Both the position numbers and the translations under genes were made by a program. From assembly GCA_964403155.1 (NCBI GenBank), contig CAYOEG010000003.1:21400-85399 (forward strand): DNA of 64,000 bases, in the 5' to 3' direction. This DNA is from an uncultured Candidatus Saccharibacteria bacterium. GTDB lineage: Bacteria > Patescibacteriota > Dojkabacteria > SC72. How positions within the stretch are numbered: position 1 is the first letter of the stretch; each line of letters starts with the position of its first letter. The notes beneath the pieces were generated by a model. It did not search any database. It saw nothing but the letters and a program-made list of their open reading frames with translations, and was not told the DNA's origin. Positions 9,877-51,500 of this stretch are shown piece by piece.

Positions 9877-10079
9877 TGACACCAAGAGTATGTGCCAAAA
9901 GACTAAAAGAAGTTAGAGAAGCTGTGGGTTATTCTCAGAAACAGCTTGGTTTGAGAGTAGGGTTGTCGGACAAATCAATTAGTATGTATGAGAAAGGCAC
10001 AGTGTATCCACCTGTTTCCAATCTATTAAAAATTGCCAAGGAATTAGAAAAAGACGTTAGCTATTTTATCCAAGATTAA
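9876..10079 (+). CDS. XRE-family helix-turn-helix transcriptional regulator
   Basis: The HTH_3 pattern GYSQKQLGLRVGLSDKSISMYEKG; the start overlaps the upstream stop (TAATG). Confidence 0.7.
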   Translation: MTPRVCAKRLKEVREAVGYSQKQLGLRVGLSDKSISMYEKGTVYPPVSNLLKIAKELEKDVSYFIQD

Positions 10080-10693
10080 CGAGGTGGTGTTAGCCAGCTC
10101 TTAGTTTTCTTAAGGAGTTTTTTCGAAATCTCAATTCCTCCCCATATAGATAATCCTGCAACTGCAAGAATTATTAGTACTTCGATTGCAACCAAGATTA
10201 TGTACTCTATCGTGATTGGTTGGGAAACGAGATGAGAATCTAGTGTGATGGAATTACTTACAGTGTTGGTATAGTTTGTATCATACTGCCAAGCAATGGT
10301 GCTCACATTTATCTTGTAAGTACCACTTGCAGATGGTTTAACAACTGCTTTGTACGTATATTCTCCGCCATCTGTTACATTCACAAATTCGGGATGTTTT
10401 GGAGTAATTTTAATTGTAGATGAACTATCCCAGATAATTTGGACTTTTGAGGAGGTTAAGTGGGGTACGATTGTAAGTGTATATGTAATGTTTTTATTTA
10501 ATGGTGACTGTACGCCTTCCGAGAGTGTTAGATCAAAGTATTTGTTGGTTGCCATGCTTGTATTTTCATCTACATCTGTTTGAAGTGTATATTCGCCTGT
10601 GGATTCTTCAGTGGTAGTTTCTTGGGCATAGGCGTTTGAAACAACCCCGATGGAAAGTAAGATTGAAAAAAGAATAACAAAGAAATTTCTCAT
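10076..10693 (-). CDS. Hypothetical secreted protein with a C-terminal membrane anchor
   Basis: Signal peptide MRNFFVILFSILLSIGVVSNAYA. The C-terminus has the hydrophobic helix ILVAIEVLIILAVAGLSIWGG followed by KKLLKK. Confidence 0.4.
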   Translation of the reverse strand: MRNFFVILFSILLSIGVVSNAYAQETTTEESTGEYTLQTDVDENTSMATNKYFDLTLSEGVQSPLNKNITYTLTIVPHLTSSKVQIIWDSSSTIKITPKHPEFVNVTDGGEYTYKAVVKPSASGTYKINVSTIAWQYDTNYTNTVSNSITLDSHLVSQPITIEYIILVAIEVLIILAVAGLSIWGGIEISKKLLKKTKSWLTPPR

Positions 10694-11106
10694 TTAAGTA
10701 TTCTGTGTATGCTCATATTATATATCTTGTAAGCTTCTTGTGCTTCACTCTCTGTTATATCAAAATCATCATGTACTATTTTATTTCTTATTTTGTGCAC
10801 TTCCCAAAGCCTATCATACTCATTCCTCTTAAATCTATTTTTTATTAGTTTCAAATTATCTCCGCACGGATTACTGTTCGAAAGTCTGTATTGCAGAGCT
10901 TTAGATAGTATGTTGTCTAACTTAATAATAGTGTCTCTTCTTCGTGCAAGGTCATCAGAAGTTGCTCCCGCCCTGAGAGCCTCCAGGCTGTTGAGCATAC
11001 GAGATATTGCCTTTTGTTTTTCTTTCCTTTGATTTTGGCTAGCAAACAAGAATAGAACTGCGACACAGATCAAAATCAAAATTGTTATTATTAGTGCTTT
11101 ATCCAT
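10690..11106 (-). CDS. Membrane-anchored protein with a HepT-like HEPN motif
   Basis: N-terminal TM helix LIITILILICVAVLFLFA. The C-terminal IRNKIVHDDF fits the HEPN Rx4-6H / HepT RNxxxH motif. Confidence 0.4.
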   Translation of the reverse strand: MDKALIITILILICVAVLFLFASQNQRKEKQKAISRMLNSLEALRAGATSDDLARRRDTIIKLDNILSKALQYRLSNSNPCGDNLKLIKNRFKRNEYDRLWEVHKIRNKIVHDDFDITESEAQEAYKIYNMSIHRILK

Positions 11107-30174: not shown

Positions 30175-30178
30175 AAGT

Positions 30179-30730
30179 TTAGAACTTTATCTCAATATTT
30201 TTCTTTTCTTCCTCGGATGCCTCAAAGAAAGGCTCTGCTTTGAACCCAAGGATATTTGCAATTATATTGTTTGGGAAGACGACAATCATAGTATTAAAGT
30301 CTCTAACAGTTCCATTGTAGAATCTTCTTGATTTCTGAAGTGTATCTTCTAATTCCTTAAGGCTTGTTTGAAGCTCTAGGAAGTTTGTATTAGCCTTTAA
30401 TTCAGGATAATTTTCTGCGAGTGCGAATATCTTAGAGAGTCCCTTTGATAACTGATCTTCTAACTTCGCTTTTTCCTCAAAAGAACCAGCAGTCATAGCT
30501 TGTGTTCTTAATTCTGTAACTGCAGAGAATGTCTCTTTCTCATGCTTCGCGTAGCCCTTTACTATTTCTACCAAATTGGGAATCATATCGTATCTTTGTT
30601 TCAAGATTGTCTCAATATCTGCAGAGGCTTCACCTATGACAACTTTCTGCCTGGATAGCTTGTTGAATAGACCTATTACAACAAGTGCGACTAGAAGGAC
30701 AACACCCAATATTATATATAGAGCGGTCAT
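30179..30730 (-). CDS. LemA family protein
   Basis: N-terminal TM helix plus KQRYDMIPNLVEIVKGYAKHEKETFSAVTELRTQA, the LemA signature. Confidence 0.7.
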   Translation of the reverse strand: MTALYIILGVVLLVALVVIGLFNKLSRQKVVIGEASADIETILKQRYDMIPNLVEIVKGYAKHEKETFSAVTELRTQAMTAGSFEEKAKLEDQLSKGLSKIFALAENYPELKANTNFLELQTSLKELEDTLQKSRRFYNGTVRDFNTMIVVFPNNIIANILGFKAEPFFEASEEEKKNIEIKF

Positions 30731-39838: not shown

Positions 39839-40999
39839 CTACCCAATAATATATAGCTCCTCCTCTGCTCGGGTAACCGCTGTATAAAGCCATCTTCTCC
39901 AATTATCATCAGTCATTTGAGGGAAACGTTCCTCAAAAAGAATAACCTTTTTTGCTTGACTACCCTGTGCCTTATGCACTGTTAAAGCATAACCAAAATC
40001 AAACAAATTCATATTCTCAGAAAGATACTGCGTCAATGTTTCAGATTTCCCAAATTGATCAACACTAATAGGACCGGAGAAGATATCATCTTCACCATCC
40101 AAAGCAATCTCAGTATCATAAAAATTACCAACATCATTTTTAGATATAGAAAGTATTGTACCAGTCATACCATTAAATATTGCCATACTAGGATTGTTCT
40201 TTAAGCAAATCACACGGTCACCATATTGAGGAGTAGGTGCATCGAACTCTAATAATTGTCTAATGCCTTTATTCAAATCTACACGTGTACGATTGTATCC
40301 AACAAGGACCATTGTTTGATCATTAAAAGATTCCATTTTGCTCGATATAAATTCCTGAGTATCCTCTTCCTTTTTCGAGATTTTTCTAACTGTATCAGAA
40401 AAATCCATAAAAGGAATCTGACCATAACGTCTCGCAATCTCAGATACTTTAATAATCGGATTATCACGCTCCTGCCTAAATATTTCTTCCAATCGTAGAG
40501 TAGGGTTTGACATAAGATTGAAAGATTCTTCAATAGGGGGTAATTGCCCATGGTCGCCAGTTGCAAGCACAGGCACATCATAGCTCAAAAGATCCTCCCA
40601 TATTGTAGAAGTAACCATTGAAGCCTCATCAACAATAATTAAATCATAATCGAATTCCTCAGCTGATTTCCTTTCCCAGCCTATGATATTGTCTTTGTCA
40701 TCACAAATAGCTTTGTATATAAGGCCATGTATAGTACCTATGTAATCAGAAGTACTAATTGATCCTGCATCTTTTAATTTTCGCTGAAGCACTCTAGCAG
40801 CTTTACCAGTAAAGCTACAATATGCAATCTTAATTTTCTTTTTCTCCTTATGAATATATTGCCCTAGAATACCAAGTAATGTCGTTTTCCCAGTGCCTGC
40901 ATAACCACCAAATGTAATATATTGAGTAGGATGTTCTTTGTACCACTGTAAAATACTCTCTAATATGTTGTTTTGCTTCTCTGAAAGTTCAAATTTCAC
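39839..40999 (-). CDS. Compact SF1B RecD/Dda-like DNA helicase
   Basis: Walker A GYAGTGKTT, Walker B IIVDEASM, LATGDHGQLPP, and ALTVHKAQGSQAKKVIL (motif V/VI); 386 aa. Confidence 0.65.
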   Translation of the reverse strand: MKFELSEKQNNILESILQWYKEHPTQYITFGGYAGTGKTTLLGILGQYIHKEKKKIKIAYCSFTGKAARVLQRKLKDAGSISTSDYIGTIHGLIYKAICDDKDNIIGWERKSAEEFDYDLIIVDEASMVTSTIWEDLLSYDVPVLATGDHGQLPPIEESFNLMSNPTLRLEEIFRQERDNPIIKVSEIARRYGQIPFMDFSDTVRKISKKEEDTQEFISSKMESFNDQTMVLVGYNRTRVDLNKGIRQLLEFDAPTPQYGDRVICLKNNPSMAIFNGMTGTILSISKNDVGNFYDTEIALDGEDDIFSGPISVDQFGKSETLTQYLSENMNLFDFGYALTVHKAQGSQAKKVILFEERFPQMTDDNWRRWLYTAVTRAEEELYIIG

Positions 41000-41035: not shown

Positions 41036-42463
41036 ATGTCTAATGTATATAGTATTATGAAAAAGAGCAAGTTTGCCCATATAGTGCTTACAGTGGCGCT
41101 GTTTCTTTCTACGCTTAGCGTAGTACAAGCTTCAGATGTTAAAACATTCACATATTTTACCGGCATAGGGTGTCCTCATTGTGCAAATGTATCACCAGAA
41201 TTACATGAGAAAGTAAATACTACTGATGGGCTGGTTATGGTAGAATACGAGCTTTACAAACAATCATCAAATGCAAAAGTTCTAGCAGATTACAGCGATC
41301 GATTTGGATTTAATCTCGCGATTCCATTAGTAATATATGAGCCCAATGTATATGATCTGGGTGATACACCAATATTAGAGAACCTAGGCCAAAGACTTTC
41401 AGATATCAAAACAAATACTGTTGAACAAGAAGATGAGACTGTCACATGGACAAACTTTGATCTAAATGATTTCAAGGGCTATCCAAAAATCTTTGGAAAA
41501 GACAGGGTAGCAATGAAAACTGATACTGGAACAATCACAGGAGATCAGAATACAGAAATAAAGGGGTTCCTTTCTACAAGCGGATTAGACGAATGTGTAT
41601 CAAATCTGACAGGAGAATCAGTAAGTGACCTGACTGTTGAGTATCCTGGAGGCTTTGAAACTTACACATACGGTATTAAAATAGGTTCTTGGACTCTATT
41701 ATGGAGAGGAAACACTTGCGCGCAAGTAGGGGATACAACTGCTGATGAAAGTAATACAGAAAATAACTCGGATATATCATTATTAAAAATTGGGACACTT
41801 GCGATTACAGATTCTATAAACCCGTGTGCTTTATCTGTTTTACTCATGATGTTAGTTGCTATCACCACATATCATCCAAAGGACAAAAAACAGGTGTTGC
41901 GGTCAGGGCTAGCTTTTGTAGGAGCAGTTTTTATCACATATTTCATATATGGTATTCTCATAATCAAAGCATTTACATTAATCCAAGGCCTAAGCAGTAT
42001 CAAAACATATCTTTATACTGGATTGGGAATAGGAGCCATACTATTAGGACTTTTAGAGCTTAAGGATTTCTTTTTTTACAAACCTGGTGGTATTGGTACA
42101 GAGATGCCTTTGTTCCTAAGACCAAAGGTCCAGAAGATTATAGCTAGAATAACATCTCCACTAGGTGCTTTTGCTTTGGGTATGTTTGTAACATTATTCT
42201 TGCTTCCATGTACCATTGGTCCATATGTCATATTAGGAGGCATGTTATCTTTTAGTGAGTTTTTAAATACCTTGCCGTATCTTTCCTTCTACAATCTTAT
42301 TTTTATCTTGCCAATGATCATTATAATTTTACTTGTATTTTTTGGTACAAAGAATATTAAACAGATTAATGAATGGAAAGAAAAAAATGTTAAAATCATG
42401 CATTTAATTATTGGCGTTATATTCTTACTTTTGGGCTGTACTATGGTATTGGGATGGTTTTAG
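41036..42463 (+). CDS. Fusion of an exported thioredoxin-fold CPHC domain to a CcdA/DsbD-like membrane domain
   Basis: Signal peptide, then TYFTGIGCPHCAN (a DsbA-like CPHC active site). The TM domain has the two CcdA Cys motifs, INPCALSVLL and LLPCTIGPYV. Confidence 0.6.
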   Translation: MSNVYSIMKKSKFAHIVLTVALFLSTLSVVQASDVKTFTYFTGIGCPHCANVSPELHEKVNTTDGLVMVEYELYKQSSNAKVLADYSDRFGFNLAIPLVIYEPNVYDLGDTPILENLGQRLSDIKTNTVEQEDETVTWTNFDLNDFKGYPKIFGKDRVAMKTDTGTITGDQNTEIKGFLSTSGLDECVSNLTGESVSDLTVEYPGGFETYTYGIKIGSWTLLWRGNTCAQVGDTTADESNTENNSDISLLKIGTLAITDSINPCALSVLLMMLVAITTYHPKDKKQVLRSGLAFVGAVFITYFIYGILIIKAFTLIQGLSSIKTYLYTGLGIGAILLGLLELKDFFFYKPGGIGTEMPLFLRPKVQKIIARITSPLGAFALGMFVTLFLLPCTIGPYVILGGMLSFSEFLNTLPYLSFYNLIFILPMIIIILLVFFGTKNIKQINEWKEKNVKIMHLIIGVIFLLLGCTMVLGWF

Positions 42464-42503: not shown

Positions 42504-45323
42504 ATGATAAGCTCCAATAGCAGAAGAATAATTATGACTTGTGCTATCGTAGTTGCCTCAATTTTAAGCTATGTCGCCATTTGGAGTAACAGCAGAGGAA
42601 ATGTGTTTGCAGGAAGAAATGTAAGCTGTGCCTGTAGAGGTGTAGAAGATTGTTATTGTATAGAAGGGGAGATCTTTGAAGGTACTTGCCCAGATACACA
42701 AAATTATATGCATTGCACTAGAAGAGTTTGCAATGTTTGTAAAATTGGATCTCCCCCAGACTGCGAGCCTACGTTGGCATGTAATTCTCCATGTACCGGA
42801 GGTGGTGATTGGACTTATTTTAATGGCTCATACCATACATGTGATACTCCAATCAGTTGTACTTCCGGCGAAGGTTGCGACGATTGTACTCCACCAGCTT
42901 GTCCAACAGGATATACAGACGTTAATCCAAATAACTATTGCTCTACCATCAGAAGTGATACATCTTGTAGCAATGGTGACGATGATTGCGGAGATTCCTG
43001 CGGTAGTAACACCAGGAAGTGCTACCTTAAGGAAACCAACACCTCCTTCGTCCAAGCCAATCTTTCTACAGATGGTCCATCTAGTATAAGTATGATTGTA
43101 GATGGTAGAACATACTCCCTCTCTACTGATCCCAACAATCCTACACCTATCGAACTACCTGCCCCTGGATCCTCTGATGTACAGTTATCAGTACCTACAT
43201 TCACTGCACCAACAACCTCAAGAGGTGCTAACTATTACTTCCAAGCAAACAACTATGGCGTTGATAATGAATGGAAAACATGGACTAATTGTAGTGGTGT
43301 AGCAGGAGAAGACTTCTGTACCGAAATGCCAAATTCTAACAACACCCAAGCATTTGACCCTACATCACTAACTGTAAACCAAGTACTAAAGGAAGGTGCA
43401 GTAGGTCAAATATCTGCTCAATATGCCACTCTTAATAAATGCGACAATGAATTACAATATTCTAGCGCAAGGGTGGGTTACTATAAAGTTGATTACATAC
43501 CGGATCCTCCACCAGATGATCCAGAAATAATCTTCCCCGATATTACAATGGACAGGACACCAAGAGGATGCTCAAGCCTTACATACACTGGGCAAGATAT
43601 TAACAACCCTCTGCATGTTGTATTCAAAACTTCTGACGAAGACGGGAGTTATGATATACAAGCTGCTACCATATGGCTTAGCAAAGATAATACTGTACCT
43701 ACCACTGGTACAATCACAGGTACTTACTCAGGTTCTTCCAATCAAGACTTAGGAATAATGATTAAGAAACATGGAACTGATTGGTCTAACCCATATATAT
43801 ATGTAACTAATACATCTCCTTTCACTTTTGCAAGAATCACAAATGAATATGTAACTGTAAATGGGAGTAACATAGCAAGGATATATGATGTATCTGTGAC
43901 AGAGGATTCCGCAACAGCTGTAACATTTGATTACAAGATTGAATTCCTAGCGTCATCTGAAAATCTCTCGGGTATGTACAATGTATATGGTGGAGCATTA
44001 GATACACTCATGATAGATGGTAACACACTAGATCAAAATTACTTCATCTCACTAACAGACTGGGGAATAGATCTTGTAAACCCAGTGGCTAATGACATAA
44101 CCCAAGAGATATATGATGCAACTAGAACAAACATCACATGGTCTGTATCAGACACAATCAGTGGGATAGATAGAACAGTAATTAACGCATACAGAACAGG
44201 AGGATTAGTCACAGACAATGTCACCCTTTACTTACCTACCGCATACACTACAAGTAAAGGAACTGTTCTGCTAAGTAGTGGCAGCCCTGTCCCAGATTTA
44301 GACGATATTGGCTTGTATGAAGATACAAATGCATGGATATTTACAACTTCAACAGGAGAAAAAGACAGACTCAGCATTGGGAACAATGAAAATGGTAATA
44401 TTTTGCTTTACACAACACCGTATGACAAAGCTTGTAATGTTGCATCCACAAGTGAAAACCTTGATCTAAATCCATGGATTGCGACAAGAGGAGGATCAAT
44501 ATATTCTCTGAACAGCATCTCTTCTCCTGCAAAAGATGTTACGTCAAGTACAAACCTAGATGGAGTATTTGATACCCGTACATCTATGACAAAAGAAAAA
44601 CTTGACCTAGGAACAGAACTATTGGCAACAAGAAACGTTAATATAACGAGCCTAATACATTCCTCGGCAGGAGCTGTGAGAGCATTGCATGTAGTAGATG
44701 AAAATAGAGTAAAAAGCTATTGGTATTCTCAACTTTATAAGAAATTCGAGGAAAAAAGAGATGGTCTTACATCTTTCACAAAAGGAAGTAGTGATGACGC
44801 AACAACGGATAGCTGTACAGGAAATAAATGCTACATGTTTGCGACAGGGGATATACATATTCCATCAAGCTACTCTTGCGATGTTCCAACTCTCTTTATT
44901 TCTGAACAAAATATATATATTGAACCAGATCTAGAAAGCAATGGTGGACTTTCAGGGTGTATCTTCCTAGCAAAAAATAATATATACATCGGTGGTGGAA
45001 GTTACGCGTCTAATACAAAAATTCAATATGATTATATTGAGGGATTTTTCATCGCTGATAATCAAATAATTTTTTCATTAGCAGACCAGGCGAAATCTCT
45101 TAGAGATGGTATCGAGATATATGGTGGATTGATTGCTCTTGGCTCAAACATCTCAGATGGGAATAATGCGGTATTAATAAATAGAAATCTAAGGCTATAT
45201 AATCAAACTAACCCAACACTCGTTATAACATATGATAATAGATACGCCAATTTATCATACATATTCTTCGGAACTTCAACTCAGCTTTACAAACAAGAAG
45301 TCGGATTCAAAACAGGTGATTAA
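42504..45323 (+). CDS. Giant Cys-rich secreted/anchored surface protein, paralog A (939 aa)
   Basis: N-terminal hydrophobic anchor or signal. A roughly 140-aa region with about 35 Cys. One R domain of about 150 aa (ETNTSFVQANLSTDGPSSISMIVDGRTYSLSTDPNNPT...TAPTTSRGANYYFQANNYGVD...AGEDFCT). A conserved C-terminal body of about 600 aa shared with paralog B. Confidence 0.5.
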   Translation: MISSNSRRIIMTCAIVVASILSYVAIWSNSRGNVFAGRNVSCACRGVEDCYCIEGEIFEGTCPDTQNYMHCTRRVCNVCKIGSPPDCEPTLACNSPCTGGGDWTYFNGSYHTCDTPISCTSGEGCDDCTPPACPTGYTDVNPNNYCSTIRSDTSCSNGDDDCGDSCGSNTRKCYLKETNTSFVQANLSTDGPSSISMIVDGRTYSLSTDPNNPTPIELPAPGSSDVQLSVPTFTAPTTSRGANYYFQANNYGVDNEWKTWTNCSGVAGEDFCTEMPNSNNTQAFDPTSLTVNQVLKEGAVGQISAQYATLNKCDNELQYSSARVGYYKVDYIPDPPPDDPEIIFPDITMDRTPRGCSSLTYTGQDINNPLHVVFKTSDEDGSYDIQAATIWLSKDNTVPTTGTITGTYSGSSNQDLGIMIKKHGTDWSNPYIYVTNTSPFTFARITNEYVTVNGSNIARIYDVSVTEDSATAVTFDYKIEFLASSENLSGMYNVYGGALDTLMIDGNTLDQNYFISLTDWGIDLVNPVANDITQEIYDATRTNITWSVSDTISGIDRTVINAYRTGGLVTDNVTLYLPTAYTTSKGTVLLSSGSPVPDLDDIGLYEDTNAWIFTTSTGEKDRLSIGNNENGNILLYTTPYDKACNVASTSENLDLNPWIATRGGSIYSLNSISSPAKDVTSSTNLDGVFDTRTSMTKEKLDLGTELLATRNVNITSLIHSSAGAVRALHVVDENRVKSYWYSQLYKKFEEKRDGLTSFTKGSSDDATTDSCTGNKCYMFATGDIHIPSSYSCDVPTLFISEQNIYIEPDLESNGGLSGCIFLAKNNIYIGGGSYASNTKIQYDYIEGFFIADNQIIFSLADQAKSLRDGIEIYGGLIALGSNISDGNNAVLINRNLRLYNQTNPTLVITYDNRYANLSYIFFGTSTQLYKQEVGFKTGD
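44052..44245 (+). repeat. About 194-bp near-identical tract shared with 49252-49445 inside diverged paralogs (gene-conversion tract)
   Basis: I see only 2 mismatches over roughly 194 bp, while the flanking sequence is about 75% identical. The tract encodes the identical peptide TDWGIDLVNPVANDITQEIYDATRTNITWSVSDTISGIDRTVINAYRTGGLVTDNVTLYLPTAYTTSKG. Confidence 0.6.
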
Positions 45324-45366
45324 AGCTTTGTGATATACTTACTAATATATTTAATCTGCTCACAAC

Positions 45367-46122
45367 ATGCCTAAGCCATTCCTCTATTTCGATACTGAAA
45401 CAACAGATTCAACTGTTAAAGACCTCATACAACTAGCCTTTGTTACTGATGGAGACGTCAAATTAAATATGTATTTCAAACCTAAGCAGCAAATCTCTTT
45501 TGGCGCAATGGCAGTACACCACATTACGCCAGAATTTCTTGAGGATAAACCATATATAGAAGATACACCCCTCCCTCTAGAAAACCTTGACCCCGATTTC
45601 ATAGGAGACTCCCTTGAAGACTATCTCAAATTCTTAGCTAACAAATATATCTGGGTCGCTCATAATGTTGATTTTGATTTAGAAGTACTAAACCGGAAGG
45701 GAATAAAAATACCCGAATATATATGTACATTAAAAATTGCAAGAAATATGTTAAGTGAAGGGGAGCATGACTTAGAAAGCTATTCTCTTCAGTATTTACG
45801 TTACTACTTAGGTCTATATAAAGAGGAAAATCAAGATCACAACACTGCGCATGATGCCCTTAGCGATGTGCATTTTCTTAAAAATCTATTTCATTACCTA
45901 CAATCACACAGTACACTATCAGCTGAAAATATGATCTTAATAACAAAAGAACCTCAATTCATGAGACAGATATCTTTTGGTAAATATGCAGGGAAAACAC
46001 TAGAAGATATTGCTAGACTAGATAAAGGATACTTAGAATGGATAGTAGAAACGATGGAAGACAAACCTGATTTACAGTGGAATGCAAAGAGGGTATTGAG
46101 TAATGATTTAACTTTATTCTAA
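45367..46122 (+). CDS. DEDDh 3'-5' exonuclease (DnaQ/ExoX-like) with a DUF3820-like C-terminal domain
   Basis: Exo I FDTETT, Exo II VAHNVDFDLEVL, Exo III HTAHDALSD. The C-terminal FGKYAGKTLEDIARLDKGYLEWIV matches the DUF3820 / ExoX C-terminal signature. Confidence 0.7.
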   Translation: MPKPFLYFDTETTDSTVKDLIQLAFVTDGDVKLNMYFKPKQQISFGAMAVHHITPEFLEDKPYIEDTPLPLENLDPDFIGDSLEDYLKFLANKYIWVAHNVDFDLEVLNRKGIKIPEYICTLKIARNMLSEGEHDLESYSLQYLRYYLGLYKEENQDHNTAHDALSDVHFLKNLFHYLQSHSTLSAENMILITKEPQFMRQISFGKYAGKTLEDIARLDKGYLEWIVETMEDKPDLQWNAKRVLSNDLTLF

Positions 46123-46127
46123 TACAA

Positions 46128-47312
46128 ATGAAGAAAAAAATAGTATTACTATCAATATTACTACCCATTTTCATGCTTCTTCTTTGCGGTGGATTATACT
46201 TTCTTTTTAAAGATAAAATACCAGTTTTAAATACGGTAAAAATAGAAAAATATACAGAGATCTTAGATTGGTGCGAATCATCTAAGTCTGAGGAAGGACT
46301 AGTTATCAACTGTCCAGCACTACTAGTAGACATAAGGGTAGGTGAGGAAAACACAAGCTGCTTCGATATTCAAATACTTACAAAAAACAATACTATTGAA
46401 GATCTTTCTCTTTGCGAGCGAACAGATAAGATAAGTTATGCAAATGAAATCCTACAATTTAAAAGATTACTACCTATAGATGTAGAATTCTCTTACTCTC
46501 GCCCAAATCTCTTGAGTAGCTATGTGTTTAATACATTTGATATGACCCTAATGTCTGATGATCAGATTAAAGCATTTGTAAATGATGATATTGCAGAACT
46601 TGTTAATATGGATATAACTACTACAAAAATAAAGAATAGTGTGGATTTCTGTCCAGCACCAGATAAATTGCCGGAATATATAACAGAGACGAATAAAACC
46701 AGCTATACAGGATTTTATGAAGCAAACAAGCTTGAAGCTTCAGAATACGAAAATACATACAATTATAACCTTGATGATACCGTAATCCGTTTTCTTTTCA
46801 GTTGTGATTCAAAGAAAATAGTAAATAATCTGTCTGGGTGTACACAAACCAGTTATCAATTGTCAGAAGATGCATATACAGAACTAAGAAAAACACCTAA
46901 CTCAATTGATTTTGATATGGCTCTTAATGATAATGACCGATACAATATAAAGATAGCATCTTTTTTGATCGATAATCCAGATGGAATCAAAATTAGTAGT
47001 AGTGTATCTGCATTAATCACTCTTCTCAAAGAACTCAATGGTACACCTGATGTAAATGAATATTTATACTGCTCAGCTTACAAGGTAATTTCCAAAATAG
47101 AAGATAGCTTAGCACAAGAATATTCAAATGTAATGTTAGATAATATTGAACAAAGCATCCACAAAACCACTTCCGCTATATGTGCGGGTATGGTTTCTTC
47201 TGATGATGTTGATAATATTGGTTTGTATCTTAGGATAATAAATTCTACAAAAGGTGATGATTTCCAGATATTAAATAAATGTAATATTTTAAATCTAATA
47301 TCACAGAAGTAA
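46128..47312 (+). CDS. Hypothetical signal-anchored extracytoplasmic protein
   Basis: MKKKIVLLSILLPIFMLLLCGGLYFLF forms a TM helix; the remainder has several Cys and no motif I recognise. Confidence 0.4.
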   Translation: MKKKIVLLSILLPIFMLLLCGGLYFLFKDKIPVLNTVKIEKYTEILDWCESSKSEEGLVINCPALLVDIRVGEENTSCFDIQILTKNNTIEDLSLCERTDKISYANEILQFKRLLPIDVEFSYSRPNLLSSYVFNTFDMTLMSDDQIKAFVNDDIAELVNMDITTTKIKNSVDFCPAPDKLPEYITETNKTSYTGFYEANKLEASEYENTYNYNLDDTVIRFLFSCDSKKIVNNLSGCTQTSYQLSEDAYTELRKTPNSIDFDMALNDNDRYNIKIASFLIDNPDGIKISSSVSALITLLKELNGTPDVNEYLYCSAYKVISKIEDSLAQEYSNVMLDNIEQSIHKTTSAICAGMVSSDDVDNIGLYLRIINSTKGDDFQILNKCNILNLISQK

Positions 47313-47316
47313 TATT

Positions 47317-50300
47317 ATGTCTGTATTTCGCTTAAAAGTATTCGCTGCATTAGGAGGATTTCTTTTTCTATTACTTTCTTCTACAGAGATTTTAGGATAT
47401 GTATGCAGCAGTCTTCGCACATGCAATGGAGGACCAACATGTACTATCAGTTCAACAAGGGCATATTGCTCGAAAGAAGCATCGGATAGCCCTATTTGTA
47501 ATTGCCCTGATACTACACAATACATACATTGCTTAGAAGGTGCATATAGCTTTAGCAATTGTTGTCCATATAACAATCTATACATTGATAATATGGGCAG
47601 TGGTTATTGTACAAGATCAATAGATGCAACATATCCTAACGGTGGAACTTGTGAGTGTTGTACTCAAATCAACTGTGATTGTACACCCAAATGCCCAACG
47701 GGTTCGTATTTTACAAACACAGGGGCATACTGCTACGCAGGCAAATCAAGTTGCTCAGAATCTAACGAATGTTCAGAATGTACAGACTATGGTGCAGCGT
47801 GTTACTATCCAGAAACAAACACATCTTTCGTCCAATCAAATGGTTCTACAGCTGGTCCAACTAGCATAACTATGACAGTAGATGGTACTGCATATACTCT
47901 TTCTACCGATCCTAATAACCCTACTGTTATCAAACTACCTCAATGTTCTTCTCCGACTGTCCAATTATCTGTCCCTGCATTTACAGCACCAACAACCTCA
48001 AGAGGAGCTAATTACTATTTCCAAGCAGATAACTATGGTGTAGATGGTCAGTGGCAAGGATGGGTATCATGCGCTGGTACTGCAGGAGAAGATTTTTGTA
48101 CTGGGATGCCAAATTCAAATAGAACCCAAACCCTTGTTCCATACTCTTTAACAATAAATCAAGTATTCAAAGAGGGGGCAGAAGGTAAAATCTCTGCACA
48201 ATATGCTACAACTAATAAATGTGACGATAACTTTAAATATTCTGTTGCAAGAGTTGGTTACTATATAGTCGAGACAGTAAAACCAACTGTTAATCCAACA
48301 TCCGTAAATATAACTGTCGATGGAAAGACATACAGTCTCTCCTCTTCTGCGTCTACGCCTACAACTATAAAACTTCCATCTTTAGGATCTTCTGATGTAC
48401 AAGTATCTGTACCAACCTTTACAGCTTCTACAAGTTCTACAGGCGCCAACTATTATTTTAAAACTGATAATTATGGCTTAAATGGAGAATGGACGGGTGG
48501 AACTGCATGTCAAGGTATCGCAGGAGAAGATTTTTGTCTTGGACCTAACGCGAACAATACACAAACCTTTGATCCATACACCAAAACAGTAGCTCAAGTA
48601 CTTAAAGAAGGCGCAAAAGGTAAAATAACCGTTCAATATGCAGCTACAAACAAATGTACCACATCTTGGGAATACTCAAGCGCATTTACAGGATACTATC
48701 TTGTAAACAAAAAACCCGTACCAAACACAAACATCTTTCCAGATATAGCAACAGACATAACTCCCAAAGGATGTGCAAGCCTTACATACACAGGATTAGA
48801 TATTAACAACCCTCTGCATGTAGTAATAAATGCTACTGATGCCGATGGGAATGGTGATATACAAGCTTCTACCATATGGTTTACCAAAGATGATACGATA
48901 CCTACTACTGGTACAATCACAGGTACTTATTCTGGTTCTTCAAATCAAGACCTAGGGATAATGATTAAAAAGAATGGTACTACTTGGTCCAATCCATATA
49001 TATATGTAACCAATACATCTCCTTTTACATTCGCAATAATCACAAATGGATATGTAACTGTAAACGGAAGCAACATAGCAAGAATATATGATGTATCTGT
49101 AATACAGGACTCTACAGACGTTACATTTGATTACAAAATAGAGTTCTTACAAAGTGCTCAAAATCTCTCTGGTATGTACAATGTATATGGAGGAGCATTA
49201 GACTCATTCATGATCAACGGTAATAGTTTAGATCAGAGTTACTTTACATCTCTAACAGACTGGGGGATAGATCTTGTAAACCCAGTGGCTAATGACATAA
49301 CCCAAGAGATATATGATGCAACTAGAACAAACATCACATGGTCTGTATCAGACACAATCAGTGGGATAGATAGAACAGTAATTAACGCATACAGAACAGG
49401 AGGATTAGTCACAGACAATGTCACCCTTTACTTACCCACCGCATATACAACAAGCAAGGGAATTGTGACCTCTCAATCGTTACCACCAGCAAGTGATATT
49501 GGTAAATACGCAGGAACAAACGCCTGGGTATTTACAACTTCAACAGGAGAAAAAGATAGATTAAGCATTGGAAACAATGAAAGTGGAAGCATTGCAATCT
49601 ACGCCACAACATATGATAAAGCATGTAACACTGCATCTACAAACGAAGAACTTGATCTAAATCCATGGTTTGCAACAAGAGGAGGAAATGTCTATTCGCA
49701 AGGCAATATATCCACCGATGCTAAAGATGTCTCCTCTGTAACATCTCTAGATAATGTGTTTAGTTCAAAAGCAGGGATGACTAAAGAAAAACTAGATCTA
49801 GGGACAGAATTGCTTTCTACTGGAGATTTGAACATATCGAACTTAATACATTCAACCGCAGGGGCTATAAGAGCACTGATCACATATGATATGAATAATA
49901 GTAAGAATTATTGGTTTGGAGCTCTATCTAGCGAATTTGAGAAATACAAGCTAAACTCAACTGCCTTTGTTCCAACAACAACCTCTGTCTCTGCTGATTG
50001 CATGGGAACAGGGAGCTGCTATTATATTTCACTCTCAGCAGAAGCAGATATTAATATACCATCGGGATATATCTGTGATAGACCAACCCTTATAATTTCA
50101 AACAGGGATATATACCTAGAACCAAATGTAACAAATGGCGCAGGGCTATCAGGCTGTATCTTCCTCGCCAAAAACAATATATATATCGATGATGCCAGCT
50201 ATCTTTCAGCTACACAAATAAAATATGATTACCTTGAAGGCTTCTTTATAGCTGATAACCAGATAGTATTTCCTTTAGTTGACCCGGCAAGAACAAGAAG

Positions 50301-50517
50301 AGATGGAGTAGAAATATTTGGTGGATTAGTTGCATTCGGATCAAACATATCAGACAATAGCAAGGCAATATCAATAAACAGAAATTTAAGATTATACAAT
50401 CAGACAAACCCAACACTTGTTGTAACATATGATAATAGATATTCAAACATATCTAAGATTTTCTTTGGACAACAAGCTTCAATATACAAACAAGAGTTAG
50501 GATTCAAATCTTACTAA
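47317..50517 (+). CDS. Giant Cys-rich secreted/anchored surface protein, paralog B (1066 aa, two R domains)
   Basis: Same architecture as paralog A (42504-45323), with two tandem R domains of about 150 aa (SVPAFTAPTTSRGANYYFQADNYGVD... and SVPTFTASTSSTGANYYFKTDNYGLN...). The C-terminal body is about 75-100% identical to A. Confidence 0.5.
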   Translation: MSVFRLKVFAALGGFLFLLLSSTEILGYVCSSLRTCNGGPTCTISSTRAYCSKEASDSPICNCPDTTQYIHCLEGAYSFSNCCPYNNLYIDNMGSGYCTRSIDATYPNGGTCECCTQINCDCTPKCPTGSYFTNTGAYCYAGKSSCSESNECSECTDYGAACYYPETNTSFVQSNGSTAGPTSITMTVDGTAYTLSTDPNNPTVIKLPQCSSPTVQLSVPAFTAPTTSRGANYYFQADNYGVDGQWQGWVSCAGTAGEDFCTGMPNSNRTQTLVPYSLTINQVFKEGAEGKISAQYATTNKCDDNFKYSVARVGYYIVETVKPTVNPTSVNITVDGKTYSLSSSASTPTTIKLPSLGSSDVQVSVPTFTASTSSTGANYYFKTDNYGLNGEWTGGTACQGIAGEDFCLGPNANNTQTFDPYTKTVAQVLKEGAKGKITVQYAATNKCTTSWEYSSAFTGYYLVNKKPVPNTNIFPDIATDITPKGCASLTYTGLDINNPLHVVINATDADGNGDIQASTIWFTKDDTIPTTGTITGTYSGSSNQDLGIMIKKNGTTWSNPYIYVTNTSPFTFAIITNGYVTVNGSNIARIYDVSVIQDSTDVTFDYKIEFLQSAQNLSGMYNVYGGALDSFMINGNSLDQSYFTSLTDWGIDLVNPVANDITQEIYDATRTNITWSVSDTISGIDRTVINAYRTGGLVTDNVTLYLPTAYTTSKGIVTSQSLPPASDIGKYAGTNAWVFTTSTGEKDRLSIGNNESGSIAIYATTYDKACNTASTNEELDLNPWFATRGGNVYSQGNISTDAKDVSSVTSLDNVFSSKAGMTKEKLDLGTELLSTGDLNISNLIHSTAGAIRALITYDMNNSKNYWFGALSSEFEKYKLNSTAFVPTTTSVSADCMGTGSCYYISLSAEADINIPSGYICDRPTLIISNRDIYLEPNVTNGAGLSGCIFLAKNNIYIDDASYLSATQIKYDYLEGFFIADNQIVFPLVDPARTRRDGVEIFGGLVAFGSNISDNSKAISINRNLRLYNQTNPTLVVTYDNRYSNISKIFFGQQASIYKQELGFKSY
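49252..49445 (+). repeat. Second copy of the near-identical tract (partner of 44052-44245)
   Basis: See the first-copy entry; the two copies are offset by exactly 5200 bp. Confidence 0.6.
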
Positions 50518-50537
50518 ATTTATATATAATATTAAGT

Positions 50538-51500
50538 ATGTTAAAGAAAAAATACTCTGCACAAGCTTTGGCTATTGCGATGGTAGTTTTGGTAGTTTCA
50601 TCTATTCTTGCTATTTCCATCTATTCTCGTATATCAAAAGATAAGACTCTCTCACTAGATGAAAGAGCTTCCGCAGAGGCTCTCGAAGTCTCTGACCTGA
50701 TTCTTAACTACCTCACAGATGCTTCAATTAACGATGTGATCGAGGCAGCCGAAGAAGCGTCTGAGACACAAACTATAGAAACAGGCATCAGCCTAACAGA
50801 AAATGCTGCTTCATCACAAATATCTTCCTTGTTGGAGGCAATTGGTATTAATGCTGGACTAGAATCATTAGATATATGTCCACTGTCTGTAGCTGGTAAT
50901 TCGTATGTACTTTCGTTGACAGAGGGAGATTTAGATACATATTTTGAGATAAGACCTGGACAGATGATGGCATTGCCACTTAAAGGAATGGCATTGGGTG
51001 ATGATTGCAGCACAGTCCTGAGGGCTGCAATTAGGGGAGACAGTACAACGGGATTCACACTTACAAAAGTATATGGTTCGGGATATGTAAATGATTTGGC
51101 AACATCATACAAACCATACGATGAATCAGACGTCGCCCATTATTGTTTCTCTTCTGGAACAGGTTGCAATAACTCAAATTTCCTAGATAGTAGCAGTGAT
51201 GGTGTAAACTGGATCTATTTTTCAGATGATGGAACCGAACAAATAGACTTAGATCTAAAAGCTACATCTGGAGGATATCAATTGGATGAGGTAAAAATAA
51301 CAGCAATTGGAGGCACAGTTGGTATTGCTTATCAAATTAACAACCCAGAAAGCTGTACACAAGACCTCCAGATGATAAATGTACAAGCTGCTGCAAACTG
51401 TAGCGGCTCATATAGAGGGAAATCTGTTCTCATACCAAAAAAGCAATGGGAAAGCCCGATATTCAACTATACAATTTTTAACGGAGAGGGTTCACTCTAA
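50538..51500 (+). CDS. Hypothetical signal-anchored protein downstream of paralog B
   Basis: MLKKKYSAQALAIAMVVLVVSSILAISIYSRISKD is a basic N-terminus followed by a long hydrophobic helix. The remainder is Ser/Thr/Gly-rich and extracytoplasmic. Confidence 0.4.
   Translation: MLKKKYSAQALAIAMVVLVVSSILAISIYSRISKDKTLSLDERASAEALEVSDLILNYLTDASINDVIEAAEEASETQTIETGISLTENAASSQISSLLEAIGINAGLESLDICPLSVAGNSYVLSLTEGDLDTYFEIRPGQMMALPLKGMALGDDCSTVLRAAIRGDSTTGFTLTKVYGSGYVNDLATSYKPYDESDVAHYCFSSGTGCNNSNFLDSSSDGVNWIYFSDDGTEQIDLDLKATSGGYQLDEVKITAIGGTVGIAYQINNPESCTQDLQMINVQAAANCSGSYRGKSVLIPKKQWESPIFNYTIFNGEGSL

What the first reader, a model, noticed from the sequence alone, without database searches (positions are those of the whole stretch)
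42504..51500. Locus of two giant paralogous Cys-rich surface proteins with a modular N-terminus, separated by a DEDDh exonuclease and a membrane protein
- Two ORFs of 939 and 1066 aa share the same architecture: an N-terminal anchor or signal, a region of about 140 aa with roughly 35 cysteines, then one (A) or two (B) copies of a roughly 150-aa domain, then a C-terminal body of about 600 aa.
- The 150-aa domain is marked by VDGxTYSLS...GSSDVQxSVPxFTA(P/S)T(T/S)SxGANYYF(Q/K)xxNYG...AGEDFC.
- The C-terminal body is highly similar between the two, with segments like GCIFLAKNNIYI.
- Between them lie a DnaQ-like exonuclease with a DUF3820 tail and a signal-anchored protein.
- Another signal-anchored protein follows paralog B.
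- I recognise none of these domains from characterised families. Domain number varies between the paralogs, and the Cys-rich cap is variable.
- Together this suggests a diversifying adhesin or host-interaction system typical of episymbiotic small-genome bacteria.
Basis: partly seen in the sequence, partly recalled or inferred. Interest (0 to 1): 0.6.

Follow-up and report, generated by a model that had tools for sequence, protein, structure and literature searches.

The report
Candidate type IV pilus tip adhesins
The two giant cysteine-rich proteins are real paralogs of a Patescibacteria-only family that always travels with a small membrane-anchored partner and a pilin-like protein, and in related bacteria sits inside the type IV pilus operon, so they are most likely interchangeable adhesive tips for pili that these tiny bacteria use to grab other cells.

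Summary
A (42504-45323, 939 aa) and B (47317-50517, 1066 aa) are true paralogs, 68% identical over 749 aa. Each has a signal peptide, a Cys-rich cap, one (A) or two (B) R domains and a roughly 600-aa C-terminal body. The cap holds 21 Cys, not about 35.

No part matches a curated family or a specific solved fold. The AF2 model is a rod of Ig/FN3-like beta-sandwiches.

The new result is context. In about 45 related loci, nearly every giant (G) is translationally coupled to an upstream signal-anchored protein (M; here 46128-47312). Most arrays also carry a ~320-aa protein (T; here 50538-51500) within 32 nt after a giant.

T is predicted to have a 56-residue N-terminal helix plus a beta head. It lacks Glu5 and gives sub-threshold PilX_N hits. 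In three sister-clade loci, T directly follows three canonical minor pilins, with the M-G pairs between it and pilMNO. Three more loci place a giant next to pilM(NO).

I read M-G-T as a pilus tip module: T is PilX/GspK-like, and G is a non-propeller functional analogue of PilY1/MshQ. This is inferred, not shown.

The ExoX exonuclease looks like a syntenic bystander. The upstream CPHC/DsbD-like protein probably handles disulfides.

This is a new variant of a known kind. Confidence is about 0.55.

The parts
41036..42463 (+). Signal peptide + thioredoxin-like domain with CPHC + polytopic DsbD_2/SfLAP-like membrane domain (475 aa). Probable extracytoplasmic thiol-disulfide oxidoreductase serving the Cys-rich proteins.
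   Evidence: Pfam SfLAP 35.5 bits (cut-off 35) and DsbD_2 20 bits (below its cut-off). The CPHC motif is visible in the sequence. There are about 6 hydrophobic segments. It lies directly upstream of the first M/G gene in 9 related loci. The function is inferred.
42504..45323 (+). Giant paralog A (939 aa). Signal peptide aa 1-~36; Cys-rich cap aa ~30-184 (21 Cys); R domain aa 185-335; Pro-rich linker; body aa 340-925; conserved tail aa 926-939. It is the only giant surveyed that has no M gene upstream.
43056..43508 (+). R domain of A, a beta-sandwich with pLDDT about 90. It is the best conserved module among close homologs.
44067..44236 (+). Exact 170-nt tract identical to 49267-49436 in B; a gene-conversion tract between the paralogs.
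   Evidence: the next longest exact match is 28 nt. The same region is shared as a 332-nt exact tract between two paralogs in L001.
45279..45320 (+). Extreme C-terminal peptide of A (..LYKQEVGFKTGD). It is the most conserved stretch of the family but is disordered in the monomer model. Proposed docking strand.
   Evidence: E932, G934, F935 and K936 are invariant in 46 sequences. E/G/K are at least 90% conserved in 40 sequences at 22% mean identity. pLDDT is below 50 for aa 926-939. The docking role is inferred.
45367..46122 (+). Cytoplasmic DEDDh 3'-5' exonuclease with an ExoX-like C-terminal motif (251 aa). Probably a syntenic bystander.
   Evidence: Pfam RNase_T and ExoX-like_C above cut-off. 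NCBIfam ExoX scores 117 bits, below its 202-bit cut-off. No hydrophobic segment. Its position in the locus varies, and it is absent from the pilus-embedded loci.
46128..47312 (+). M1 (394 aa): signal-anchored partner protein with an extracytoplasmic domain and conserved Cys49/Cys62. It ends 4 nt before B.
   Evidence: No Pfam or PDB match.
47317..50517 (+). Giant paralog B (1066 aa): signal peptide, Cys-rich cap (21 Cys), R1 (47836-48279), R2 (48295-48723), body (48733-50511), and tail ..IYKQELGFKSY.
49267..49436 (+). Copy in B of the exact 170-nt gene-conversion tract.
50538..51500 (+). T (320 aa): pilin-like protein. N-terminus MLKKKYSA|QALAIAMVVLVV (no Glu5), a predicted 56-residue alpha-helix plus a beta-sandwich head, and a conserved disordered C-terminal tail IFNYTIFNGEGSL. 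Proposed PilX/GspK-type minor pilin.
   Evidence: AF2 pLDDT 85, helix 5-60. Homolog in L005 (E 1e-24, full length) follows the N_methyl minor pilins in a T4P operon. The same holds in L040 and L041. PilX_N hits are sub-threshold.

Best explanation
The locus encodes a three-part module, M-G-T, that builds the adhesive tip of type IV pili in Dojkabacteria-type Patescibacteria.

- **T (50538-51500)** is a PilX/GspK-class minor pilin. It is the Glu5-less fourth member of the core minor-pilin set that primes pilus assembly and ends up at the tip.
- **The giants A and B** are exported by Sec and their signal peptides are cleaved. They are not pilins.
- **Docking:** their conserved C-terminal body, and above all the invariant extreme C-terminal peptide (YKQE[VL]GFK), docks onto T and the minor-pilin complex. 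This probably works by beta-strand complementation, as shown for PilC/PilY1 with PilK and predicted for MshQ with MshP.
- **Display:** docking places the rod of Ig/FN3-like domains, the R domain(s) and the disulfide-knotted variable cap at the distal end, where they contact the host or substrate surface.
- **M** is a fast-evolving membrane-anchored protein, one per giant and translationally coupled to it. It holds or chaperones the secreted giant at the membrane until it is loaded. These bacteria have no outer membrane to retain it.
- **The upstream CPHC/DsbD-like protein** manages disulfides for the 21-Cys caps.
- **Several giants share one T**, so a cell can make pili with alternative tips. 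Gene conversion keeps the docking body compatible while the caps diverge.

Shown: paralogy, architecture, gene coupling, synteny with pilus genes in a sister clade, and the pilin-like predicted architecture of T.

Inferred: tip location, docking by the tail, the chaperone role of M, adhesion, and the redox role.
For: 1. **M-G coupling.** In 40 giant genes surveyed, nearly every complete one has an abutting or overlapping upstream signal-anchored ORF (spacing -41 to +7 nt in most).
2. **G-T adjacency.** T follows a giant within 32 nt in most arrays. More triads are seen.
3. **Sister-clade operons.** L005, L040 and L041 read: minor pilin genes with Pfam N_methyl, then T, a response regulator, M-G, M-G, then pilM-pilN-pilO. 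L005 and L041 also hold the upstream machinery genes (pilB in L005 only, then pilT, pilC, a pilin and pilD) before three minor pilins; L040 begins within the minor-pilin genes. L038 and L039 show G followed by pilMNO, and L032 shows G about 1 kb upstream of pilM. That makes 6 loci in all.
4. **Homology across clades.** win_T vs L005 T gives E 1e-24 over the full length. A vs the L005 giants gives E 2e-49 and 8e-30. M1 vs L005 M gives E 3e-4 by BLAST, and jackhmmer includes it at 9e-35.
5. **T architecture.** AF2 predicts a helix at residues 5-60 plus a beta head, pLDDT 85. The N-terminus is K-Y-x-[G/A]|QA[LI]AI.MV with Gly at -1 in several homologs and no Glu5. PilX_N is the top Pfam hit for the pilus-embedded T proteins, in register with the start of the profile, though below threshold. 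One source names a homolog 'pseudopilin PulG'.
6. **G matches PilY1-type logic.** It has a Sec-type signal peptide, one N-terminal hydrophobic segment and no LPXTG. The C-terminal body always ends the protein, while N-termini vary from 200 to 1300 aa and carry different modules. There are several paralogs per genome.
7. **Tail conservation.** The extreme C-terminal peptide is the most conserved segment yet is disordered in the monomer model.
8. **Literature.** PilY1 has a conserved C-terminus and a variable N-terminus, with paralogs in minor-pilin clusters (PMC13190605). A ~10-aa C-terminal peptide of PilC/PilY1 strand-complements PilK, and the unrelated ~1200-aa MshQ is predicted to do the same (PMC12918778). 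In Saccharibacteria TM7x, the large PilX1/PilX2 proteins lack a predicted PilD signal, and PilX2 is needed for host binding (PMC11623550).
Against: - The window holds no pilus machinery gene.
- In the window's own clade, about 35 loci place the module among housekeeping genes or scatter it as separate triads. The pilus link therefore rests on one sister clade (6 loci) plus the predicted architecture of T.
- The window's T has Ala, not Gly, at the presumed -1 position. It gives no Pfam N_methyl or PilX_N hit itself. Relatives reach only 11-17 bits against a 25.5-bit cut-off.
- Foldseek found no pilin among PDB matches to the T model (best E 4e-3, a fimbrial lectin).
- G has no PilY1 beta-propeller and no PilY1 calcium motif.
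- A lacks its own M gene.
- There are no expression or localisation data.
Confidence: 0.55

Rival explanations
1. Pilus-independent surface spike. G is secreted and held on the cell surface by the membrane-anchored proteins T and/or M, forming a fixed adhesive fibril or envelope appendage. The long helix of T would be a stalk or anchor rather than a pilin spine. Placement next to pilus genes in one clade would reflect co-regulation of attachment functions, not physical assembly.
For: - The module lies away from pilus genes in the window and in about 35 loci of its clade.
- T gives no significant pilin hit by Pfam or Foldseek.
- M and T each have a single N-terminal membrane segment that could simply anchor them.
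- The G model is a rod of Ig/FN3-like domains, like many non-pilus adhesins. PDB hits include large adhesion-protein repeats and the S-layer protein SbsB.
Against: - In L005, L040 and L041, T occupies exactly the slot of the Glu5-less fourth minor pilin after three N_methyl pilins, and the giants sit between it and pilMNO.
- The -1 Gly and QAxAI N-terminus is pilin-like.
- One T serves 2-3 giants, which fits an adaptor better than a dedicated anchor.
- Invariant but disordered C-terminal peptides fit the strand-complementation mechanism documented for pilus tips.
Confidence: 0.25
2. DNA-uptake (competence) pilus receptor. The module, together with the ExoX-type exonuclease and the adjacent RecD/PIF1-like helicase, forms a DNA capture and processing locus. 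G or T would bind extracellular DNA at the pilus tip, as ComZ does in Thermus.
For: - The exonuclease lies inside the array in the window and stays within the locus in the whole clade, next to a helicase.
- Patescibacteria depend on scavenged nucleotides, and their pili have been proposed to take up DNA (discussion in PMC11623550).
Against: - The exonuclease has no signal peptide or membrane segment.
- Its position relative to the M-G pairs shifts: before, between or after.
- It is absent from all six pilus-embedded loci.
- It pairs with the helicase as part of a housekeeping backbone (NrdD...helicase...POR).
- G has no detectable DNA-binding domain and is strongly acidic: net charge -49 for A and -29 for B.
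- G lacks the pilin N-terminus that defines ComZ.
Confidence: 0.07
3. Artefact or decaying duplication. One copy is an assembly duplicate or a pseudogene remnant with no separate function.
For: An exact 170-nt repeat is shared by A and B. A lacks the M partner that every other giant has.
Against: - Both ORFs are intact at 939 and 1066 aa.
- They differ at about 30% of nucleotides, with abundant synonymous change.
- They have different domain counts.
- Each has closer orthologs in other assemblies: P0002 is 70% identical to B, and L001 proteins are 66% identical to A.
- Arrays of 2-3 paralogs recur in independent MAGs.
Confidence: 0.03

Closest known systems
PilY1 / PilC tip adhesins of type IVa pili (Pfam PF05567 beta-propeller family)
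   Same: - Large non-pilin protein, about 900-1100 aa, with a Sec signal peptide.
- Conserved C-terminal part and variable N-terminal part that carries the binding modules.
- Several paralogs per genome with different N-termini.
- Encoded beside a PilX/PilK-type minor pilin. In the sister clade it sits inside the minor-pilin cluster.
- Invariant extreme C-terminal peptide.
- An accessory gene can sit in the cluster (tfcP in Myxococcus cluster 1, PMC13190605).
   Different: - No sequence or predicted-fold similarity: no PF05567 hit and no beta-propeller.
- The body is a chain of beta-sandwich domains followed by a small beta-rich C-terminal domain.
- No PilY1 calcium motif and no vWA domain.
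- A dedicated membrane-anchored partner M accompanies each copy.
- The N-terminal cap is disulfide-rich.
- In the window's clade the genes are detached from the pilus operon.
MshQ of the Vibrio MSHA pilus
   Same: A ~1200-aa protein that is not a PilY1 homolog. It is encoded immediately after the pilIJK-type minor pilins and is predicted to insert its extreme C-terminus into the PilK homolog (PMC12918778). This is the same logic proposed here for G and T. Some G-family members carry a DUF2341 module. From memory, that module also occurs in MshQ-type proteins, but I did not test this.
   Different: No detectable homology of A or B to any curated family. Whether MshQ and G share any domain was not tested. 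MshQ works in a diderm with a periplasm and has no M-type partner that I know of.
PilX1 / PilX2 of Saccharibacteria (Nanosynbacter lyticus TM7x)
   Same: These are Patescibacteria pilus proteins with large accessory domains and no predicted PilD signal peptide. They are proposed tip adhesins, and PilX2 is needed for efficient host binding (PMC11623550). The predicted T protein (helix plus jelly-roll-like beta head, no canonical prepilin motif) resembles the description of PilX1.
   Different: In TM7x the adhesive domain is fused to the pilin-like protein itself. Here the pilin-like protein (T, 320 aa) and the giant adhesin (G) are separate polypeptides, and there is a third component, M. Sequence homology between T and TM7x PilX1 was not tested.
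GspK / PilX (PilK) class of core minor pilins
   Same: T is the fourth gene after three Glu5-containing minor pilins. It lacks Glu5 and has a long N-terminal helix and an enlarged globular head. It gives recurrent PilX_N matches in register with the start of the profile.
   Different: The matches are below the Pfam threshold: 11-17 bits against 25.5, and none for the window's own T. The window's T has Ala at -1. The head domain has no significant PDB match.
ComZ of Thermus thermophilus (pilin with an inserted beta-solenoid, DNA receptor)
   Same: A large accessory protein of a pilus tip encoded among minor pilins. The last ~150 aa of G contain short repetitive beta strands (GCIFLAKNNIYI, EGFFIADNQIIF, YGGLIALGSNIS) that could form a solenoid-like domain. 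That reading comes from the sequence and the secondary structure and is unconfirmed.
   Different: ComZ is itself a pilin with the N-terminal helix. G has an ordinary cleavable signal peptide. No ComZ match appeared in the PDB searches.

Membership tests
PilY1/PilC tip adhesin (PF05567) | C-terminal seven-bladed beta-propeller domain (PF05567) | tested here: not met
   No Pfam hit for A or B at E <= 0.1. The AF2 model (pLDDT 79.6) is made of beta-sandwich arrays. The top 50 Foldseek PDB matches are generic Ig/FN3 tandem arrays with no PilY1/PilC among them.
PilY1/PilC tip adhesin (PF05567) | EF-hand-like calcium motif Dx(D/N)xDGxxD | tested here: not met
   A regex search finds none. Only a relaxed DxDGxxD is present, at A378 and B508.
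PilY1/PilC tip adhesin (PF05567) | Encoded in or next to the core minor-pilin cluster | tested here: inconclusive
   Met in sister-clade loci L005, L040 and L041, with G next to pilM(NO) in L032, L038 and L039. Not met in the window or its clade, apart from adjacency to the pilin-like T.
PilY1/PilC tip adhesin (PF05567) | Extreme C-terminal peptide that strand-complements the PilK/PilX minor pilin | not testable with these tools
   The tail YKQE[VL]GFK is invariant and disordered in the monomer model, which is consistent. No multimer prediction was available.
Type IV (pseudo)pilin, PilX/GspK class (for T) | Class III signal peptide: short basic leader, Gly at -1, hydrophobic alpha1-N; Pfam N_methyl or PilX_N | tested here: inconclusive
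   The window's T reads KKYSA|QALAIAMVV, with Ala at -1. Homologs have Gly (L005, L021, L040, L041). There is no N_methyl hit. PilX_N gives E 0.0055-0.43 in pilus-embedded homologs and matches 4 of 32 clade members at E >= 0.049, all below the 25.5-bit cut-off. The window's T itself gives no hit.
Type IV (pseudo)pilin, PilX/GspK class (for T) | Lollipop architecture: ~50-residue N-terminal helix packed on a globular beta-rich head | tested here: met
   AF2 model with pLDDT 85: helix 5-60, then an alpha/beta head. This is a prediction only. The head has no significant PDB match.
Type IV (pseudo)pilin, PilX/GspK class (for T) | Absence of Glu5, and gene position as the fourth core minor pilin after three Glu5-bearing ones | tested here: met
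   Position +5 is Ile in T and its homologs. In L005 and L041 it follows three ORFs with GFxLxE-type motifs and Pfam N_methyl hits; in L040 it follows two, because the locus is cut off upstream. This was shown for homologs, not for the window's own genome.
ComZ-type modular pilin | The adhesive or solenoid module is inserted in a protein that itself has the pilin N-terminal helix | tested here: not met
   A, B and their orthologs start with ordinary Sec signal peptides that have AxA-type sites (e.g. KVSA|E, TVFA|Y, ALA|Y). The hydrophobic segment is about 20 residues long.
DEDDh exonuclease, ExoX type (for 45367-46122) | RNase_T/DnaQ-like DEDDh domain plus ExoX-like C-terminal motif | tested here: met
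   Pfam RNase_T 50.3 bits (cut-off 24) and ExoX-like_C 41.1 bits (cut-off 26.5). The NCBIfam ExoX equivalog scores 117 bits against a 202-bit cut-off, so this is the same family type but not an equivalog.
DsbD/CcdA-type thiol-disulfide transporter (for 41036-42463) | DsbD_2 transmembrane domain plus an extracytoplasmic thioredoxin-fold CxxC | tested here: inconclusive
   DsbD_2 scores 20 bits, below its 24.9-bit cut-off. SfLAP scores 35.5 bits against a cut-off of 35. CPHC lies at aa 46-49, after a signal peptide. The thioredoxin-fold hits are not significant.

The most novel reading that the evidence does not exclude
M-G-T is a previously undescribed three-component solution for arming type IV pili in bacteria that have no periplasm.

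- A Sec-secreted, non-propeller giant adhesin is held by a cognate membrane tether (M).
- It is then licensed onto a PilK-like minor pilin (T) through its invariant C-terminal peptide.
- Arrays of interchangeable giants share one T.
- Gene conversion keeps the docking body uniform while the disulfide-knotted caps diversify.

Together this would act as a cassette system setting the host range of Dojkabacteria episymbionts.
Probability: 0.3. Interest if true: 0.72.

Novelty: new variant of a known kind. Interest (0 to 1): 0.58.

Why it matters
How ultrasmall Patescibacteria recognise and hold on to host cells is largely unknown. Experimental data exist only for Saccharibacteria, where a pilin-fused domain (PilX2) contributes to host binding.

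This locus points to a different, modular arrangement in Dojkabacteria/WS6: a separate giant adhesin, a pilin-like adaptor and a per-adhesin membrane partner.

It yields concrete, testable candidates for host-specificity determinants, namely the variable cap and the R domains.

It also offers a further case, outside PilY1 and MshQ, for the recently proposed rule that pilus tips are licensed by a C-terminal strand inserted into a PilK-type pilin.

If correct, it gives a way to annotate several hundred 'hypothetical' giant proteins: 257 clusters at 50% identity.

Tried and rejected
**Family and sequence searches**
- Pfam, NCBIfam and PHROGs scans of A, B, M1 and T gave nothing significant.
- tblastn of the body against phage genomes gave no match.
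- Profile searches of the G, T and M alignments against PDB sequences gave only insignificant FN3-type hits (Tie2, FLT3).
- Profile-profile comparison of M with T showed no relationship.
- The homolog search for M1 returned only 4 hits, because the family evolves too fast for the word index. I rebuilt the family from ORFs upstream of giants instead.

**Structure searches**
- Foldseek of the A model against PDB and BFVD gave only generic tandem Ig/FN3 arrays at TM about 0.1.
- Foldseek of the T model against PDB gave no hit at E <= 0.001.

**Locus scans**
- Scans with the most divergent alignments failed for lack of a conserved stretch. Narrower alignments worked.

**Other checks**
- Promoter and terminator scans showed no enrichment.
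- The window was checked for pilus machinery and none was found.
- A literature search for DUF2341/MshQ was swamped by an unrelated acronym, so that link stays untested.

**Readings considered and rejected**
- Prophage tail fibre: no PHROG or phage hit, and the context is housekeeping.
- Polymorphic toxin: the variable part is N-terminal and there is no immunity-like small gene.
- S-layer protein: there are multiple paralogs with partner genes.
- Sortase substrate: no LPXTG.
- Zinc-finger-like cap: only 2 CxxC motifs and 1-2 His among 21 Cys.

Full report
**1. What is in the sequence**

Between 41036 and 51500 all genes lie on the + strand, with gaps of 4-43 nt.
- 41036-42463 encodes a 475-aa protein. 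It has a signal peptide, a CPHC motif and a polytopic DsbD_2/SfLAP-like membrane domain.
- A is 42504-45323 (939 aa).
- 45367-46122 encodes a cytoplasmic DEDDh exonuclease with RNase_T and ExoX-like_C domains.
- M1 is 46128-47312 (394 aa, one N-terminal membrane segment).
- B is 47317-50517 (1066 aa).
- T is 50538-51500 (320 aa, one N-terminal hydrophobic segment).
- Pyruvate:ferredoxin oxidoreductase genes follow.

A and B are 68% identical over 749 aa, and B has a second R domain. The quoted motifs are present.

Each cap contains 21 Cys in about 150 aa, not about 35. With only two CxxC motifs and 1-2 His, the cap looks like a disulfide knot rather than a metal site.

A, B, M1 and T each have exactly one hydrophobic segment, at the N-terminus, and none has LPXTG. 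Orthologs of the giants begin with textbook signal peptides such as ...KVSA|E...TVFA|Y and ...ALA|Y. I therefore read the giants as secreted rather than anchored. This is read from the sequence; no predictor was available.

**2. Not an artefact**

Away from one tract, A and B differ at 15-45% of nucleotides, with many synonymous changes. Independent MAGs carry two or three paralogs in the same order.

The exception is an exact 170-nt match (44067-44236 = 49267-49436). The next longest exact match is 28 nt. In the nearest relative (L001), two paralogs share exact tracts of 332 and 239 nt, the longer at the same position. This pattern indicates recurrent gene conversion in the body.

**3. What the giants look like**

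No curated family matches: Pfam, NCBIfam, PHROGs and PDB sequence profiles all fail.

The AF2 model of A (46-sequence alignment, pLDDT 79.6) shows these parts:
- a poorly defined cap (aa 30-180);
- a confident beta-sandwich R domain (185-335);
- a Pro-rich linker;
- two or three beta-sandwich domains (365-660);
- a low-confidence stretch (670-740);
- a helix, then a beta-rich C-terminal domain (771-925);
- a disordered tail (926-939).

**4. The family**

An exhaustive HMMER search with the 600-aa body found 257 cluster representatives. In nearly all full-length hits the body runs to the C-terminal end, behind N-terminal regions of 200-1300 aa.

Named sources are WS6/Dojkabacteria or Patescibacteria. 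Some members replace the cap and R domain with Gly_rich_2, DUF2341 or GH130-like modules.

Among 45 close homologs, mean identity to A varies by region:

| Region | Mean identity to A |
|---|---|
| cap-N (aa 30-114) | 24% |
| cap-C | 44% |
| R domain | 62% |
| body regions | 44-56% |

The last 14 residues are the most conserved stretch of all. E932, G934, F935 and K936 are invariant. E, G and K are also at least 90% conserved in 40 sequences that share only 22% mean identity. AF2 nevertheless leaves this tail disordered.

**5. The partners are part of the system**

I ran tblastn and ORF surveys over loci from genome and metagenome collections, plus extra look-ups. Three findings came out.

(a) Nearly every complete giant gene has an upstream ORF of 190-600 aa that overlaps or abuts it, typically by -17 to +7 nt.
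- This ORF has a short basic N-terminus, one membrane segment and an extracytoplasmic domain.
- 23 of 33 such ORFs form one jackhmmer family with M1.
- Most of the remaining ten share the topology, and some share a Cys motif.
- Two do not fit: L018's upstream ORF is itself Cys-rich and secreted-looking, and L021's has no N-terminal anchor.
- The window's A is the only giant whose upstream neighbour is the DsbD-like gene instead.

(b) A T homolog follows a giant within 32 nt in most arrays. One T may serve one, two or three giants, and it can sit after the array or between pairs (L047).

(c) The exonuclease moves around relative to the pairs: before them in L003, between them in the window and L001, after them in L002.
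- It stays with the RecD/PIF1-like helicase.
- It is absent from the loci described in section 6.
- I therefore treat it as part of the housekeeping backbone (NrdD...helicase...POR) into which the module is inserted.

**6. The link to type IV pili**

The most distant homolog from the first search (P0048, 26-27% identical to the body) lies in locus L005. The gene order there is:

pilB, pilT, pilC, pilin, pilD, three N_methyl minor pilins, a 317-aa protein, a response regulator, M-like, giant, M-like, giant, pilM, pilN, pilO.

- The 317-aa protein is a full-length homolog of the window's T (E 1e-24).
- Both L005 giants match A (E 2e-49 and 8e-30).
- The first M-like protein matches M1 weakly (E 3e-4 by BLAST; included by jackhmmer at 9e-35).

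A metagenome scan with this subfamily recovered four more loci.
- L041 repeats the arrangement from pilT to pilO.
- L040 repeats it from the second minor pilin onward.
- L038 and L039 show the giant immediately before pilMNO.

A Dojkabacteria-labelled MAG (L032) has a giant about 1 kb before pilM.

In L041 the three ORFs before T carry Pfam N_methyl and Glu5. T does not. Its N-terminus is KRYQG|QAIAIVMV in that clade and KKYSA|QALAIAMVV in the window.

Being the one core minor pilin without Glu5, and the last in gene order, is the established signature of the GspK/PilX (PilK) class. That rests on established knowledge; gene synteny is also described in PMC12918778.

The AF2 model of T (pLDDT 85) has a helix from residue 5 to 60 followed by a beta-rich head, which is the pilin lollipop plan.

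PilX_N is the top Pfam hit for the L005 and L041 T proteins and for 4 of 32 clade members. The matches start at profile position 1, at the predicted cleavage site. They reach only 11-17 bits against a 25.5-bit cut-off, and the window's T gives none.

Foldseek found no significant PDB match for the head.

**7. Mechanism proposed**

The arrangement parallels PilY1/PilC in several ways (PMC13190605):
- a large Sec-exported non-pilin protein;
- a conserved C-terminal part and a variable N-terminal part;
- several paralogs with different N-termini;
- genes placed beside pilX.

Ellison et al. (PMC12918778) show that about 10 C-terminal residues of PilC/PilY1 strand-complement PilK and license assembly. 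They also predict the same for MshQ, a ~1200-aa protein that is not a PilY1 homolog and is encoded after the pilIJK homologs.

The invariant, monomer-disordered tail of G, encoded just upstream of a PilK-like T, fits that rule.

I therefore propose the following.
- T and three other minor pilins encoded elsewhere prime the pilus.
- G docks through its tail and C-terminal domain.
- The Ig-like rod presents the R domain(s) and cap at the distal end.
- M keeps the secreted G at the membrane until loading. These organisms lack an outer membrane (general knowledge from cryo-EM of ultrasmall bacteria, not tested here).
- The CPHC/DsbD-like protein supports disulfide formation or isomerisation for the caps.

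T also has an invariant, disordered C-terminal tail (IFNYTIFNGEGSL; W304, F309, Y311 and F314 are invariant). It is conserved across both clades. It may play the role of the self-provided strand of GspK, or it may contact a neighbour. This is open.

Every step from docking onward is inference.

**8. Membership**

G is not a PilY1/PilC family member. The defining beta-propeller and the calcium motif were tested and are absent.

G is not ComZ-like, because it has no pilin N-terminus.

T meets the architectural and positional criteria of a PilX/GspK-class pilin, but not the sequence thresholds.

I therefore class the system as working like a PilY1/MshQ-PilK tip complex, built from unrelated proteins plus an extra component.

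**9. Rivals**

- A pilus-independent surface spike anchored by T or M remains possible (about 0.25). In the window's clade the module is never next to pilus genes, and T lacks a significant pilin match.
- A DNA-uptake role tied to the exonuclease is unlikely (about 0.07).
- An artefact is essentially excluded.

**10. Verdict**

Its adhesin reading is plausible but incomplete. The conserved unit is M-G-T, the 'membrane proteins' are the key to it, and the best-supported identity is a type IV pilus tip module.

Novelty: a new variant of a known kind.

Interest is moderate to fairly high (0.58). The locus supplies specific candidates for host recognition in an uncultured Patescibacteria class, and a further test case for the strand-complementation rule. 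The central claim still needs multimer modelling and experimental localisation.

Noticed in passing
window 44067-44236 and 49267-49436; L001 paralogs at 10001-12799 and 14791-17517: A and B share an exact 170-nt tract inside otherwise 55-85% identical genes. In the closest related genome, two paralogs share exact tracts of 332 and 239 nt, the longer at the same position (about 410 aa from the C-terminus). This suggests a recurrent gene-conversion hotspot in the body. It is also a possible crossover point for assemblers.
   Followed up: partly
window 41036-42463: This ORF encodes a signal peptide, a thioredoxin-like CPHC domain and a DsbD_2/SfLAP-like polytopic domain. It lies directly upstream of the first Cys-rich giant or M gene here and in 9 related loci. 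It is a likely dedicated disulfide-handling partner, in an organism that otherwise looks strictly anaerobic (PFOR, NrdD, Fe-hydrogenase nearby).
   Followed up: partly
window 42504 (start of A): A is the only giant among about 40 surveyed that lacks an upstream M-type partner gene. The DsbD-like gene ends 40 nt before it. The public annotation also calls A 10 codons shorter (929 aa, P0003).
   Followed up: partly
window A aa 378-384 (DEDGSYD) and B aa 508-514 (DADGNGD); family consensus DxDGxxDI: A nearly invariant acidic loop lies at the start of the first body domain. It is conserved even in the pilus-embedded clade (DxNGANDIE). It may be a calcium site, but it does not match the PilY1 motif.
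   Followed up: no
window 50538-51500, aa 300-320; L040 1006-2001 and L041 5589-6548 C-termini: T carries an invariant C-terminal tail, (I/L)F(N/D)YTI(F/Y)N.. (W304, F309, Y311, F314), that AF2 leaves disordered (pLDDT < 50). It is conserved across both clades. It may be a second docking strand, analogous to the terminal strand of GspK.
   Followed up: no
L005 8599-8985; L040 2020-2403; L041 6562-6951: In the pilus-embedded clade, a single-domain response regulator (76-79% identical between loci) sits between T and the first M-G pair. No equivalent is present in the window's locus.
   Followed up: no
window 39839-40999 (-) and 45367-46122 (+): A RecD/PIF1-like SF1 helicase and the ExoX-like exonuclease stay close together across this clade, sometimes adjacent (L019, L028), while the M-G-T genes are inserted around them. 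They may form a DNA-repair pair unrelated to the adhesin module.
   Followed up: partly
window 11099-12985 (-) and 28459-30730 (-): Other envelope-related genes lie elsewhere in the window: a 628-aa transglutaminase-core protein, and a DUF2207 membrane protein next to LemA. Neither was examined further.
   Followed up: no
L048 16212-20936: In one related genome, a serine recombinase, a ResIII helicase and an N6/N4 methyltransferase (a restriction-modification-like island) lie a few kb downstream of the syntenic POR/CoA-ligase block.
   Followed up: no
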